In this document: in pieces, positions 6,567 to 38,028 of the stretch
How positions within the stretch are numbered: the first letter of the stretch is position 1
How the letters are laid out: every line of letters starts with the position of its first letter
Origin: Dehalococcoidia bacterium
GTDB lineage: Bacteria; Chloroflexota; Dehalococcoidia; GIF9; UBA5629
Assembly (NCBI GenBank): GCA_041650115.1
Contig: JBAZLT010000001.1
Coordinates: 1 to 51,596, forward strand
Length of the DNA stretch: 51,596 nt
Direction: 5' to 3'
Notes under the pieces: model-generated
What the model saw: the letters and a program-made list of their open reading frames with translations, nothing else
The model's database searches: none
Told to the model about the DNA's origin: nothing
Translations under genes and position numbers: made by a program

Positions 6567-6663
6567 ACTTTTTAGCTTTGATGAAGCCGAAAACCGGGCA
6601 TTCAGGCGGCTGATTCTGATATACTTTAACAGCCATGAATACTCCGTCTCTATACGTGCGACT

Positions 6664-35367: not shown

Positions 35368-36579
35368 ATGTGTATGAATGAAGAACAAGATCGGGATTGC
35401 TATAACATTATCTCGTTATTCAGTGGGGCCTTGGGATTAGACCTTGGTTTCGAGCGGGCGGGTTGTAACATATGTATATCGCAGGATATAGACCCCTGGT
35501 GTGTTAAGACAGCAGTTTCTAACGGTTATAAATGTATATCTGGCGATATCCGAACCCTCATCTTTAAAGACCCTGAGTGTGACTTTTTACTGAAACCAAC
35601 AGGGCTCTCAAAGAAAGATATATTTGCTGTTATAGGTGGGCCCCCGTGTCAATCATTTAGCACTGCTGGCAGAAGGCGATCGACAAATGATCCGCGAGGG
35701 GGCCTATTTGCCGACTTTTGCCATGTTGTAAGAACGATCAACCCGCGTTTCTTTGTCATGGAAAATGTCAAGGGACTATTATCAGCTGCAAGGGAACACC
35801 TACCTATAGTGCAACGTAATAGTTCCACTCAAATTTCAGATGAACAACGCCTTGGTTCAGCATTCGAAGTTGTTCTTAAAACTCTTAATGGGCTAGGGTA
35901 TAAGACTATCTATGGTGTACTTGACGCTGTGCATTACGGCGTGCCTCAGTTTAGGGAGCGGTTAATAATAATAGGCTCACGTGATGGCGAAGATATCTTT
36001 CTCCCGACCCCGACCCATTTTCACAAGCACCAGGACGCGACACATAGGTGGAAGACCTTGAGGGATGCTATTGTTGATTTGGAAGACTCGCCCGGCCCAT
36101 GTGCCAGGTTTGCAGACGACCGCATTATGTACTTAAAACTAATACCCCAAGGTGGAAATTGGAAGGATTTACCAAAAGAGATGATCCGTTCAGCGATGGG
36201 TGGCGCTTATGAAAGTGGTGGGGGAAAAGTCGGTTTCTACCGCAGATTGGACTACGATCAACCCTCCCCCACTCTTATAACTAGTCCTGCTCAAAAGGCT
36301 ACTATGCTCTGTCATCCAACGCAAAATCGGCCCCTTTCAGTGAAAGAATATGGTAGTATTCAACAATTTCCTGGGGATTGGCGTATTGAAGGGCGTATAA
36401 CTGATTGCTACAGACAGATAGGTAACGCAGTCCCGGTTGGATTAGGAAGAGCGATTGCCCAAGTGCTGTTATCGGTAGCTAAGGGTGATGCTGAGGTTAT
36501 AACTAAGCGGACGAGAGGGACTTCAGTACATAAAAAGTTAATTCAGATACAAAATAGTGTAGTGAACGGAATGATATGA
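35368..36579 (+). CDS. dcm: DNA (cytosine-5)-methyltransferase
   Basis: Motif I LFSGALGLDLGF, motif IV GGPPCQSFS, motif VI ENVKGLLS, motif VIII QFRERLIIIG, motif X QIGNAVPV. Confidence 0.92.
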   Translation: MCMNEEQDRDCYNIISLFSGALGLDLGFERAGCNICISQDIDPWCVKTAVSNGYKCISGDIRTLIFKDPECDFLLKPTGLSKKDIFAVIGGPPCQSFSTAGRRRSTNDPRGGLFADFCHVVRTINPRFFVMENVKGLLSAAREHLPIVQRNSSTQISDEQRLGSAFEVVLKTLNGLGYKTIYGVLDAVHYGVPQFRERLIIIGSRDGEDIFLPTPTHFHKHQDATHRWKTLRDAIVDLEDSPGPCARFADDRIMYLKLIPQGGNWKDLPKEMIRSAMGGAYESGGGKVGFYRRLDYDQPSPTLITSPAQKATMLCHPTQNRPLSVKEYGSIQQFPGDWRIEGRITDCYRQIGNAVPVGLGRAIAQVLLSVAKGDAEVITKRTRGTSVHKKLIQIQNSVVNGMI

Positions 36580-36591
36580 GGATAATATATT

Positions 36592-37350
36592 GTGTTAGAT
36601 CCTGTGAAAGTTGAATTAAAAATAACTGAATTGTTGGAAGACTTTTATAAGAGGCGAATCGCAACACTCTCAAAGTTAAATTTGCGAGAAACACTAAAGA
36701 GGAAAAATCCATATCTTTTCCGTGCGATTGGCACTCAACAAGCAAATGAAATTGTTGAGGCACTATTGCAAGCATATATGTCCAGTAGTGATGAGGGTAT
36801 ATTCGGCAATGTTTTTTTTGAGCCGCTAGCTAAATTTGTATCTGGGGGTGTGGTAAACGATGCAGAAGGTATTGATATCTCCATAGAGAAAAATCACACA
36901 TACACAGCTATCGCAGTGAAAAGTGGCACACATATCTTTAATTCTACGAGTAAGAAAAAGCAGGAAGATTATTTCAAGATACTTGAGAACCGACTGCGGA
37001 AATTAAGAAAGCACTTTGACCCGGTAGTAGGTTATTGCTATGGCCGCAAAGGAATAAGTAAAGTTGGACGTCCCAAGGCATGGAGAGAAATTGCTGGGCA
37101 GGCATTCTGGCAAGAACTGACCGGTGACAAAGACTTTTATCTAAAGATAATACGTTTAATGAAGGAAAAACCGAAGAATCATTTACCTGAATACAAAATT
37201 GAGTGGGACATGGCTGTAAATAGGTTTACTCGCGATTTCATCAAAGATTTTTGTTTTGGAGATGGTCGAATAGACTGGGAGAAAATCGCTGTATTGAACT
37301 CTGGTATTAAAAAAAAGAGAACTTCCAAAAAGAAAAAAAGCAGAAAATAG
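36592..37350 (+). CDS. Type II restriction endonuclease, Eco47II/TdeIII-like (tentative family), with a Lys-rich tail
   Basis: 252 aa with a GTG start, 12 nt after the methyltransferase stop. Motifs are KRKNPYLFRA and GIDISIEK...AIAVKSGTHIFNS (D...ExK plus the KSG..NS pattern recalled for this family). The C-terminus is IKKKRTSKKKKSRK. Confidence 0.6.
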   Translation: MLDPVKVELKITELLEDFYKRRIATLSKLNLRETLKRKNPYLFRAIGTQQANEIVEALLQAYMSSSDEGIFGNVFFEPLAKFVSGGVVNDAEGIDISIEKNHTYTAIAVKSGTHIFNSTSKKKQEDYFKILENRLRKLRKHFDPVVGYCYGRKGISKVGRPKAWREIAGQAFWQELTGDKDFYLKIIRLMKEKPKNHLPEYKIEWDMAVNRFTRDFIKDFCFGDGRIDWEKIAVLNSGIKKKRTSKKKKSRK

Positions 37351-37356
37351 TAATAC

Positions 37357-38028
37357 GTGAAGATTCTTACACGTAAAGATAAGAGGCTATTTACGGGCAG
37401 CCTACTAGAGTGGTGGGCTACTGCCAAGCGGACATATCCTTGGAGAAGACCTGGTATTTCACCTTATGAAGTACTAATTGCTGAAGTACTTTTAAAGCGC
37501 ACTACAGCCACTGCAGCTGCGAGAGTATATCAGGAGTTACTGGATAGATGGGATGATATTGAAGCCCTGTCAAATGCGGATCAAATCCAATTAGAAGCCA
37601 TACTTACAGCTGTGGGGTTACAGAAGCAGAGGGCACAGGGGCTTAGTGATATTGCGCACCATTTGGTAATCCACGAATCTTCGCAAATACCGTGCAAATA
37701 TGAGAGGCTAGTAGCGATACCTCATATAGGGAATTACTCGGCCAGCGCTATTCTTTCTTTTGGGTTTAATAAACCGAAAGCGGTAATTGATTCGAATGTA
37801 GTTCGCATATTCAAAAGGTATTTTTTACTTGAAGACGGTAGCGAAAAACGGCTGTCAGTGTTAGAGGATATTGCCGTTGCTCTGATTCCTAAAGATCATC
37901 ATAGGGAATTCAATTGGGCATTGTTAGATATGGGGGCATTGGTATGCCGTTACTCCAATCCGCGACACGAAATATGTCCACTGAGGGGTGGATGTAGGTT
38001 CACCACGGCATTGTATAATAATTACTAG
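37357..38028 (+). CDS. HhH-GPD superfamily DNA glycosylase, Mig/MutY-like (probable T/U:G mismatch glycosylase linked to the C5-methyltransferase)
   Basis: Motifs: YPWRR...PYEVLIAEVLLKRTT, HhH IPHIGNYSASAIL, VIDSNVVRIF. The cluster loop is C-x6-H-x2-C-x5-C (CRYSNPRHEICPLRGGC). GTG start 6 nt after the endonuclease stop. Confidence 0.75.
   Translation: MKILTRKDKRLFTGSLLEWWATAKRTYPWRRPGISPYEVLIAEVLLKRTTATAAARVYQELLDRWDDIEALSNADQIQLEAILTAVGLQKQRAQGLSDIAHHLVIHESSQIPCKYERLVAIPHIGNYSASAILSFGFNKPKAVIDSNVVRIFKRYFLLEDGSEKRLSVLEDIAVALIPKDHHREFNWALLDMGALVCRYSNPRHEICPLRGGCRFTTALYNNY

What the first reader, a model, noticed from the sequence alone, without database searches (positions are those of the whole stretch)
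37357..38028. Mig-like mismatch glycosylase coupled to the C5-methyltransferase, with a Cys-to-His change in the Fe-S loop
The 223-aa protein is an HhH-GPD glycosylase (LIAEVLLKRTT, IPHIGNYSASAIL, VIDSNVV). It lies 6 nt after the endonuclease gene in the M-R operon.

Established knowledge, as I recall it: the archaeal Mig.Mth T/U:G glycosylase is encoded beside a GGCC C5-methyltransferase R-M system. It repairs deaminated 5-methylcytosine, playing the role that Vsr plays for Dcm. The Tyr in GNYSAS sits at the HhH position where I recall Mig-type enzymes have Tyr, where EndoIII has the catalytic Lys.

Seen in the sequence: the canonical C-x6-C-x2-C-x5-C cluster loop reads C-x6-H-x2-C-x5-C here (CRYSNPRHEICPLRGGC). 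That implies a 3Cys/1His-ligated or altered cluster.
Basis: partly seen in the sequence, partly recalled or inferred. Interest (0 to 1): 0.6.

Follow-up and report, generated by a model that had tools for sequence, protein, structure and literature searches.

The report
Methylation-damage repair glycosylase with histidine cluster ligand
The last gene of a mobile restriction-modification cassette encodes a Mig-type DNA glycosylase that most likely repairs the T:G mismatches left when methylated cytosines decay, and one of the four cysteines that normally hold its iron-sulfur cluster is a histidine, a natural variant that recurs in about 7-10% of its relatives.

Summary
ORF 37357..38028 (+, GTG start, 223 aa) is an HhH-GPD glycosylase. 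It starts 6 nt after an EcoO109I-family endonuclease gene, which follows a C5-cytosine methyltransferase gene. Its best solved relative by sequence and by fold is Mig.MthI (1KEA).

It carries the Mig pocket and catalytic residues (Y27, E43, R48, A51, Y127, D145; W187 where MutY has Gln). It has no MutY C-terminal domain and scores far below the NCBIfam MutY and Nth cut-offs.

The same M-R-glycosylase cassette occurs in five other metagenomic contigs. Of 80 related genomic loci, 46 have a C5-methyltransferase within 6 kb, and 13 of those are methyltransferase::glycosylase fusions.

The cluster loop reads C197-x6-H204-x2-C207-x5-C213. H204 aligns with Mig C204 and with the engineered His199 of E. 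coli MutY C199H (1KQJ).

His at this position is a recurrent natural state: 12/120 close homologues, 10/150 cluster representatives, and 0/120 homologues of the host's own endonuclease III. It is conserved in three cassette orthologues that are only 47-48% identical.

The gene is a new member of the Mig kind, an association this scan has met many times. The 3Cys/1His loop is a modest new variant. I found no description of it, but the MutY mutant anticipates it.

The parts
35368..36579 (+). C5-cytosine DNA methyltransferase (M), 403 aa. It is the only C5-methyltransferase detected in the MAG.
   Evidence: PF00145 E 4.1e-62; TIGR00675 190 bits. It is the only PF00145 match in G000.
36592..37350 (+). 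Type II restriction endonuclease of the EcoO109I family (R), 252 aa, with a Lys-rich tail.
   Evidence: PF14511 E 6.9e-60. It is 62-72% identical to the R genes of four sister cassettes. It has no PDB hit by sequence.
37351..37356 (+). 6-nt R-to-glycosylase junction (TAATAC) before the GTG start. No Shine-Dalgarno sequence is visible, so translational coupling is likely.
   Evidence: Sequence. Sister cassettes have junctions of -4, 4, 49, 4 and 10 nt, and four of the six glycosylase genes (this one included) start with GTG or TTG.
37357..38028 (+). Mig-type HhH-GPD mismatch glycosylase, 223 aa.
   Evidence: The AF2 model has pLDDT 94.8 and pTM 0.91. The best match is 1KEA.
37483..37512 (+). 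Minor-groove/pocket motif E43-V-L-L-K47-R48-T-T-A51-T. E43 corresponds to Mig E42, R48 to Mig R47 and A51 to Mig A50.
   Evidence: Alignment to 1KEA. E43, R48, T49 and T50 are invariant, and A51 is conserved in at least 90% of 120 homologues. Roles are taken from PMC2714593.
37735..37737 (+). Y127 at the HhH position (Mig Y126; Lys in EndoIII). It predicts a monofunctional glycosylase.
   Evidence: The Mig Y126K mutant gains lyase activity (PMC9945173).
37789..37806 (+). Catalytic D145 with N147 and R150, the Asp-Asn-Arg part of the active-site-to-cluster hydrogen-bond bridge.
   Evidence: All three are invariant in 120 homologues. The bridge Cys(first ligand)-Arg-Asn-Asp is described for MUTYH and GsMutY and reported as conserved in MIG (PMC12000561).
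37915..37917 (+). W187 at the position of Mig L187 and MutY Q182 (base-specificity position).
   Evidence: In the family this position is W/L/F/Y and never Gln.
37945..37995 (+). Fe-S cluster loop C197-x6-H204-x2-C207-x5-C213. The His codon CAC is at 37966-37968.
   Evidence: It aligns with Mig C197/C204/C207/C213 and with MutY C199H His199. The model's mean pLDDT over residues 191-210 is 96.

Best explanation
What it is. The gene encodes the repair component of a mobile three-gene type II restriction-modification cassette, in the order M (C5), R (EcoO109I family), glycosylase. It plays the role Vsr plays for Dcm.

Proposed pathway.
1. The methyltransferase makes 5-methylcytosine in its target. 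The target is probably RGGNCCY or GGNCC-like, judged only from the family of the endonuclease.
2. Spontaneous deamination of 5-methylcytosine gives T:G mismatches.
3. The glycosylase flips out the T (or a U) opposite G into a hydrophobic, Mig-type pocket formed by Y27, E43, R48, A51, Y127 and W187.
4. It cleaves the glycosidic bond with D145. Because residue 127 is Tyr and not Lys, it is monofunctional and leaves an abasic site.
5. Host AP endonuclease, polymerase and ligase restore C:G, which is then re-methylated.

Cluster. The C-terminal loop most likely still holds a [4Fe-4S] cluster, ligated by C197, C207, C213 and the imidazole of H204, as in the engineered E. coli MutY C199H.

Shown here: the family placement, the motif residues, the cassette conservation, the position of the His, and its recurrence and conservation.

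Inferred: the substrate (T/U:G), the methyltransferase target, translational coupling, and the presence and ligation of the cluster.

My odds: Mig-type repair role about 0.8; cluster retained with His as ligand about 0.65.
For: Family and fold.
- 1KEA (Mig.MthI) is the best hit by sequence (E 1.8e-33) and by fold (TM 0.88/0.90, rmsd 2.0 A). The model has pLDDT 94.8.
- The Mig residues F27/E42/R47/A50/Y126/D144/L187 named in PMC2714593 correspond to Y27/E43/R48/A51/Y127/D145/W187.
- The MutY determinants V45 and Q182 are absent. The mutY and nth models score below half their cut-offs.

Linkage to C5 methylation.
- An identical M-R(EcoO109I)-glycosylase order is found in L083, L084, L088, L089 and L090. 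A distant archaeal version is in L005.
- 46 of 80 genomic loci have a C5-methyltransferase within 6 kb. This includes 20 of the 22 loci closest to the query and 13 in-frame methyltransferase::glycosylase fusions.
- The MAG has one C5-methyltransferase (this one), no Vsr and one Mig-like gene.

Mobility.
- The cassette is 42% GC, against 58-66% downstream.
- None of the 16 same-genus genomes has a close orthologue.

His as a functional ligand.
- It sits at exactly the position of Mig C204 and of MutY C199H His199.
- The only other Cys in the protein is C113, far from the loop.
- Across 250 diverse relatives the position is Cys (218), His (23), or a non-ligand residue (6: Gly in 4, Lys in 2) accompanied in all six by a compensating Cys two residues upstream. 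There is one Phe and one gap, and none of Ser, Tyr, Arg or Trp, which like Phe and Gly are single-step neighbours of Cys.
- His is kept, with both CAC and CAT codons, in three cassette orthologues that are only 47-48% identical.
- The bridge residues C197, R150, N147 and D145 that link the first ligand to the active site are invariant.
Against: - No biochemical data exist for this protein or for any close relative. The best non-self homologue is only 53% identical, and Mig.MthI is about 29-33% identical.
- Position 187 is Trp rather than the Leu of Mig, so the pocket may differ.
- The Tyr at the HhH position is shared with most MutYs.
- The methyltransferase target is not determined.
- A 3Cys/1His set is also a classical zinc site, and sequence alone cannot tell the two metals apart.
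- The coordinates of the AF2 model were not available, so the ligand geometry could not be measured.
- PMC3584444 reads Messick et al. 2002 as suggesting that the wild-type MutY cluster's relative oxidation resistance matters for activity under oxidative stress. I infer from this, and from my own recollection of that paper, that a His-ligated cluster would be more fragile.
Confidence: 0.65

Rival explanations
1. The fold and repair role are the same, but the His-containing loop binds Zn(II) or no metal at all. The site would be a structural 3Cys/1His zinc site or a degenerate, clusterless loop, comparable to the clusterless MutYX enzymes.
For: Cys3His is a common zinc ligand set (general knowledge). 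Cluster loss has happened several times in MutY (PMC12631127). One relative has Phe at this position with no substitute Cys (P0180), so a fourth ligand is not always kept.
Against: The spacing x6/x2/x5, the loop length and the flanking residues are the same as in the Cys orthologues of the same cassette. A zinc site would need the four ligands about 2.5 A closer together than a cubane does (general knowledge). The engineered MutY C199H was reported as a histidinyl-coordinated [4Fe-4S] cluster (title of Messick et al. 2002, cited; the 1KQJ sequence is). C197, R150 and N147 of the cluster-to-active-site bridge are invariant.
Confidence: 0.2
2. It is an adenine glycosylase of the MutY type, as automatic annotation names many homologues. 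Its job would be to prevent oxidative G-to-T mutations, and it would lie next to the R-M genes only by chance.
For: Several sources label homologues 'A/G-specific adenine glycosylase'. TIGR01084 is the best NCBIfam model. No separate MutY was found in the 82%-complete MAG. Wild-type Mig has weak A/G activity (PMC2714593).
Against: The score of 140.8 bits is far below the mutY cut-off of 286.5. There is no C-terminal 8-oxoG-recognition domain. The sequence has Ala51 and Trp187 where MutY has Val45 and Gln182. True MutYs form a separate, well-supported clade with no methyltransferase neighbours. The three-gene cassette is conserved across unrelated flanks.
Confidence: 0.06
3. It is an offensive defence component: a glycosylase that attacks foreign DNA, for example uracil-containing or otherwise modified phage DNA, or unmethylated target sites, alongside the endonuclease.
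For: It lies in a defence island next to a Druantia-type operon (earlier notes). Other scan findings propose HhH/Fe-S restriction glycosylases paired with methyltransferases (unchecked).
Against: The cassette already has an intact, conserved endonuclease. The glycosylase family follows C5-methyltransferases whatever the restriction partner is (EcoO109I-like, Eco47II-like, DndB-like, or none in the fusions). That pattern fits a link to methylation damage rather than to cutting. The pocket residues are those of the mismatch enzyme Mig.
Confidence: 0.05

Closest known systems
Mig.MthI (PDB 1KEA), the T/U:G mismatch glycosylase of Methanothermobacter plasmid pFV1, encoded with an m5C restriction-modification system
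   Same: Same size (221 vs 223 aa), fold (TM about 0.9), catalytic Asp, Glu, Tyr and Ala pocket residues, absence of a MutY C-terminal domain, Fe-S loop spacing with identical residue numbers (197/204/207/213), and linkage to a C5-methyltransferase R-M system.
   Different: Only about 29-33% identical, and not the nearest clade on the tree. Residue 187 is Trp instead of Leu. The second cluster ligand is His instead of Cys. The host is bacterial (probably Dehalococcoidia) and shows no sign of thermophily. The partner endonuclease is of the EcoO109I family rather than MthTI.
E. coli MutY C199H (PDB 1KQJ; Messick et al. 2002, Biochemistry 41:3931), an engineered histidinyl-coordinated [4Fe-4S] cluster
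   Same: His replaces the same (second) Cys of the C-x6-C-x2-C-x5-C loop. The alignment places H204 on His199.
   Different: 1KQJ is a laboratory mutant of an adenine glycosylase. Here the His is natural, recurrent and conserved in a mismatch-glycosylase family.
Vsr endonuclease with Dcm, and Vsr genes of m5C R-M systems
   Same: Same biological logic: a T:G-specific repair enzyme encoded next to, and co-inherited with, a C5-cytosine methyltransferase.
   Different: The fold and chemistry are unrelated (Vsr nicks 5' of the T; this enzyme removes the base). No Vsr gene was found in this MAG.
MutY (TIGR01084) and endonuclease III (TIGR01083)
   Same: HhH-GPD catalytic domain with the Fe-S cluster loop and the Asp-Asn-Arg-Cys bridge.
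   Different: Scores are below both family cut-offs. It lacks the MutY C-terminal domain and V45/Q182. It lacks the Nth catalytic Lys.

Membership tests
Mig-type mismatch glycosylases (Mig.MthI-like) | HhH-GPD fold with the catalytic Asp (Mig D144) and Glu (E42) | tested here: met
   PF00730 scores 49.2 bits against a cut-off of 26.2. D145 and E43 align with the Mig residues and are invariant. Fold TM is 0.88/0.90 to 1KEA.
Mig-type mismatch glycosylases (Mig.MthI-like) | Tyr, not Lys, at the HhH position (Mig Y126): monofunctional | tested here: met
   Y127 aligns with Y126 and is invariant in 120 and in 150 relatives. It is not exclusive to Mig.
Mig-type mismatch glycosylases (Mig.MthI-like) | Pyrimidine-type pocket: Ala at Mig A50 and a hydrophobic residue at Mig L187, in place of MutY V45 and Q182 | tested here: met
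   A51 and W187. In the family, position 187 is W/L/F/Y. Trp instead of Leu is a difference of unknown effect.
Mig-type mismatch glycosylases (Mig.MthI-like) | Catalytic domain only, with no C-terminal 8-oxoG-recognition domain | tested here: met
   223 aa; the protein ends 10 residues after C213.
Mig-type mismatch glycosylases (Mig.MthI-like) | Four-cysteine C-x6-C-x2-C-x5-C [4Fe-4S] motif | tested here: not met
   The second ligand is His204. The spacing is kept. 23 natural relatives share this state.
Mig-type mismatch glycosylases (Mig.MthI-like) | Genetic linkage to a C5-cytosine methyltransferase | tested here: met
   M-R-glycosylase operon. The same cassette occurs in five other contigs. 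46 of 80 genomic loci have a C5-methyltransferase nearby.
Mig-type mismatch glycosylases (Mig.MthI-like) | T:G and U:G glycosylase activity | not testable with these tools
   This needs an enzyme assay.
MutY (NCBIfam TIGR01084) | Score above the curated cut-off; Val45/Gln182 adenine pocket; C-terminal NUDIX-like domain | tested here: not met
   140.8 bits against 286.5. A51 and W187. No C-terminal domain. It lies outside the starred MutY clade.
Endonuclease III (NCBIfam TIGR01083) | Score above the cut-off; catalytic Lys in the HhH motif | tested here: not met
   77.6 bits against 211.7. Tyr127 stands where the MAG's own Nth has Lys (GVGMKTAS).

The most novel reading that the evidence does not exclude
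His at the second cluster ligand defines a natural, repeatedly evolved class of 3Cys/1His [4Fe-4S] HhH glycosylases. The class would be concentrated in methyltransferase-linked Mig-like enzymes of mostly anaerobic lineages. In this reading the imidazole ligand is selected, not merely tolerated, because it changes the cluster's redox potential, its proton coupling or its oxygen sensitivity. It would then tune or switch DNA binding and repair activity.
Probability: 0.2. Interest if true: 0.6.

Novelty: new variant of a known kind. Interest (0 to 1): 0.42.

Why it matters
[quoted passage not shown] The role of the cluster, whether structural, allosteric or redox signalling, is still debated.

A natural set of orthologues that differ only in Cys versus His at one ligand, within the same gene cassette, offers ready-made pairs for testing what the ligand does to potential, stability and activity. 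It extends the single engineered precedent, MutY C199H.

The data also add to the evidence that Mig-type glycosylases are a common alternative to Vsr in m5C restriction-modification systems, either adjacent to the methyltransferase or fused to it. Public annotation hides this under the name 'A/G-specific adenine glycosylase'.

Tried and rejected
- **Sequencing error for the His.** Rejected: TGY to CAY needs two base changes, and 22 other independent sequences carry His.
- **Another Cys substituting as ligand.** Rejected: the protein has only C113 outside the loop.
- **A residue that co-varies with His.** The top associations (positions 52, 182, 86, 91 and others) only mirror subfamily membership. 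No specific compensating residue was found.
- **Proof of several independent origins of His.**
  - The trees need 12-16 changes, and at least 3 are forced by well-supported branches.
  - The AU test does not reject a single origin (p 0.0996).
  - Within the EcoO109I cassette one origin fits.
  - I therefore claim recurrence, not a count of origins.
- **PDB relative of the endonuclease by sequence.** None found.
- **Mig plasmid pFV1 in the plasmid collection.** Not present; the plasmid hits were distant, at most 37% identity.
- **Papers.** Messick 2002, Horst & Fritz 1996 and Fondufe-Mittendorf 2002 are not held in the library. Their content is taken from citing papers or marked as my own knowledge.
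- **Literature on natural His ligands in HhH glycosylases.** Searches found nothing.
- **Promoter and terminator scans.** Results were at chance level.
Full report
**1. The observation**

The window has an open reading frame at 37357..38028 on the + strand, 223 codons long with a GTG start. The upstream endonuclease gene stops with TAG at 37348-37350. The six bases TAATAC follow, then the GTG, all in one reading frame and with no visible Shine-Dalgarno sequence.

Pfam assigns the three consecutive genes as follows:
- 35368..36579: DNA_methylase (C5), E 4.1e-62
- 36592..37350: RE_EcoO109I, E 6.9e-60
- 37357..38028: HhH-GPD, E 7.4e-13

The C-terminal loop reads CRYSNPRHEICPLRGGC, i.e. C197-x6-H204-x2-C207-x5-C213. 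The only other cysteine in the protein is C113. H204 is encoded by CAC at 37966-37968, which is two base changes from either Cys codon.

**2. Which glycosylase**

NCBIfam ranks mutY first, but at 140.8 bits against a cut-off of 286.5. It scores nth at 77.6 against 211.7. The protein therefore belongs to neither curated family.

Against solved structures:
- The best sequence match is 1KEA, the thymine-DNA mismatch glycosylase Mig.MthI, at E 1.8e-33 over residues 4-215 of both proteins. MutY catalytic domains follow at about 1e-27 and endonuclease III at 1e-17 or weaker.
- An AlphaFold2 model built on 120 homologues is confident (pLDDT 94.8, pTM 0.91).
- Its best Foldseek match is again 1KEA (TM 0.88/0.90, rmsd 2.0 A).

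PMC2714593 lists the residues that distinguish Mig from MutY: E42, A50 (MutY V45), L187 (MutY Q182), Y126, F27, R47 and the catalytic Asp. By the HMMER alignment and my residue count these correspond here to E43, A51, W187, Y127, Y27, R48 and D145.
- Mig Y126K loses glycosylase activity and gains AP-lyase activity (PMC9945173). The Tyr therefore predicts a monofunctional enzyme.
- The Tyr is not diagnostic of Mig, because most MutYs also have it (PMC12631127).
- The protein ends ten residues after the last Cys, so it has no MutY-type C-terminal domain.
- Position 187 is Trp here. In the family it is Trp, Leu, Phe or Tyr, and never Gln.

**3. The link to cytosine methylation**

The database search found 229 homologues at E<1e-10. 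The closest non-self hit is only 53% identical.

I looked up the contigs of the five nearest relatives. All five carry the same three genes in the same order (L083, L084, L088, L089, L090). Their flanks are unrelated to one another.

Among the five more closely related cassettes (this window, L083, L084, L088, L090), protein identities are:

| Protein | Identity |
|---|---|
| Methyltransferase (M) | 63-69% |
| Endonuclease (R) | 62-72% |
| Glycosylase | 46-53% |

The glycosylase is thus the fastest-evolving member of the cassette.

A scan of one genome per prokaryotic species gave 80 related loci. I searched them with an iterated C5-methyltransferase HMM:
- 46 of the 80 loci have a C5-methyltransferase within the 6-kb flanks.
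- This includes 20 of the 22 loci closest to the query.
- 13 loci are single ORFs that fuse a C5-methyltransferase to the glycosylase domain (Dehalococcoidia and Solirubrobacterales, among others).
- True MutYs of 340-420 aa have no such neighbour.

The partner between M and the glycosylase varies. It is EcoO109I-like in L004 and L005, Eco47II-like in L050, and two DndB-family genes in L086. The constant partner is therefore the methyltransferase, not any particular nuclease. That is what a repair function tied to 5-methylcytosine predicts.

The host MAG is 2.04 Mb and 82% complete. The named relatives of its own Nth are Dehalococcoidia or Chloroflexi. It has:
- one C5-methyltransferase, the one in this cassette;
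- no Vsr;
- only one other HhH-GPD gene, an Nth with the catalytic Lys.

The cassette has 42% GC against 58-66% just downstream. None of 16 same-genus genomes has a close orthologue. The cassette is therefore an acquired mobile unit. It sits in a defence island next to a Druantia-type operon, according to earlier notes of this scan.

**4. The histidine**

Position.
- The alignments place H204 on Mig C204 and on residue 199 of chain 1KQJ, which is His in that entry.
- 1KQJ is the E. coli MutY mutant described by Messick et al. [quoted passage not shown] I could not read the paper itself.
- The natural His therefore occupies exactly the ligand position where an engineered His was reported to coordinate the cubane.

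Frequency.

| Sample | His at the second ligand | Source |
|---|---|---|
| 120 best database homologues (including the query) | 12 | |
| Top 150 representatives of 50%-identity clusters | 10 | |
| 120 best homologues of the MAG's own endonuclease III (control) | 0 | |

The control set is less diverse (61-100% identity), so it is a weak control. The MutY clade of the tree (45 rows) also has no natural His.

Constraint on the position. Across the 250 rows used for the tree, the position holds:
- Cys in 218 rows;
- His in 23 natural rows;
- Gly in four rows and Lys in two, all six of which have a Cys two residues upstream (a C-x4-C-x4-C-x5-C variant found in an ANME-2/Methanoregula clade);
- Phe in one row, and a gap in one row.

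Ser, Tyr, Arg and Trp, which like Phe and Gly are single-step mutational neighbours of Cys, are not seen. That pattern argues that the position is held to metal-binding residues.

Conservation.
- Within the EcoO109I cassettes, the window, P0003 and P0004 carry His. P0002, P0006 and P0024 carry Cys.
- The three His proteins are only 47-48% identical and use both CAC and CAT codons.
- They fit a single clade (glycosylase tree support 73/79; AU p 0.56 on M+R+V).
- The His has therefore been kept through deep divergence.

Number of origins.
- Family-wide, the trees need 12-16 Cys/His changes.
- Well-supported branches force at least three changes.
- An AU test does not reject a single origin (log-likelihood 94 lower, p 0.0996).
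- I therefore report recurrence across different architectures without claiming a count of origins. Those architectures are plain cassettes, C-terminal HTH fusions in M-DndB-DndB contexts (L086), and an archaeal cassette (L005).

Link to the active site.
- The hydrogen-bond bridge that links the cluster to the catalytic Asp in MUTYH and GsMutY runs Cys(first ligand)-Arg-Asn-Asp. It is reported as conserved in MIG (PMC12000561).
- The corresponding residues here are C197, R150, N147 and D145. All are invariant in the family.
- The substituted ligand is the second one, at the end of the DNA-contacting cluster loop. It is not the bridging ligand.

**5. Mechanism proposed**

1. M methylates C5 of a cytosine in its site. 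The site is probably RGGNCCY or GGNCC-like. This is inferred only from the family of R and is not tested.
2. R cuts unmethylated sites.
3. Deamination of 5-methylcytosine gives T:G.
4. The glycosylase excises the T (or a U) opposite G using D145, E43 and Y127. It leaves an abasic site for host base-excision repair.
5. C:G is restored and re-methylated.

The 6-nt junction, the GTG start and the similar junctions in sister cassettes suggest translational coupling to R. This is inferred.

The cluster loop, with R198 and R203, would sit on the DNA backbone and hold a [4Fe-4S] cluster through C197, H204, C207 and C213. This is inferred from the MutY C199H precedent and from the conservation pattern.

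[quoted passage not shown] From this, and from my own recollection of that paper, I infer that a His-ligated cluster may be more oxidant-sensitive. That might be tolerable in anaerobes such as the lineages where this subfamily is common (Dehalococcoidia, Ammonifex, ANME, Bathyarchaeota). This is speculation.

**6. Rivals**

- Zinc or no metal in the loop: about 0.2.
- A true adenine glycosylase of the MutY type: about 0.06.
- An offensive restriction or anti-phage glycosylase: about 0.05.

The evidence for and against each is given in the Rival explanations section.

**7. Comparison and novelty**

As a Mig-type glycosylase attached to an m5C R-M system, this is a new member of a known kind (Mig.MthI on pFV1; Horst & Fritz 1996 as cited).

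This scan has already logged the pairing many times. Sixty-six notes matched the words, including fusions and the M-DndB-glycosylase::HTH cassette. The association itself is therefore not new here.

The natural 3Cys/1His loop is a variant I could not find described:
- Reviews state a four-cysteine motif.
- My literature searches and the scan's own notes returned nothing on it.

It is anticipated by the engineered MutY C199H, so a specialist would find it neat rather than startling. I score interest at 0.42.

**8. Limits**

- No biochemistry exists for this protein or its close relatives.
- Three key older papers are not held in the library.
- The trees are poorly resolved at this divergence.
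- The His rows in the 250-row tree were partly hand-added. The unbiased frequencies are therefore 12/120 and 10/150, not the ratio seen in the tree.

Noticed in passing
L025, L027, L028, L031, L039, L044, L045, L058, L061, L065, L073, L076, L078 (ORFs of about 600-700 aa ending near locus position 6600): Thirteen single ORFs fuse a C5-cytosine methyltransferase (N-terminal) to a Mig-like glycosylase domain (C-terminal). They occur mainly in Dehalococcoidia and Solirubrobacterales genomes, and all have four Cys ligands.
   Followed up: partly
P0008, P0016, P0018, P0026 and about half of the 120 homologues; L086:5286-6224: Many homologues carry a C-terminal XRE-type helix-turn-helix domain (PF01381/PF12844) fused to the glycosylase. 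In L086 the gene order is M, DndB, DndB, glycosylase::HTH, with no recognisable endonuclease.
   Followed up: partly
L011:2423-3076, L012:1549-2238; P0146, P0153, P0170, P0228: A well-supported clade (ANME-2, Methanoregula and metagenomic relatives) has moved the second ligand two residues upstream. The loop is C-x4-C-x4-C-x5-C ('YRGC'), with Gly or Lys at the canonical position.
   Followed up: no
window 35368-38028 and L083, L084, L088, L090: Within the same cassette the glycosylase diverges much faster (46-53% identity) than the methyltransferase (63-69%) and the endonuclease (62-72%).
   Followed up: no
window 37309-37359: The endonuclease gene ends in a Lys-rich tail encoded by A8 and A7 runs. 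It is in the same reading frame as the glycosylase gene, separated only by TAG-TAA-TAC.
   Followed up: no
G000 whole genome; L082:741-1409 (-): The 82%-complete MAG shows only two HhH-GPD genes, this one and a canonical Nth with a Lys and four Cys. No MutY was detected.
   Followed up: partly
P0180, P0199, P0264: Rare relatives have other loop irregularities. P0180 has Phe at the second ligand with no substitute Cys. P0199 and P0264 have the third ligand replaced by Thr or Ser, with a Cys displaced nearby.
   Followed up: no
L001:3409-4146; L016:5965-6654: Two of the 22 closest genomic relatives have no C5-methyltransferase detectable in the available flank, so the pairing is frequent but not universal.
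   Followed up: no
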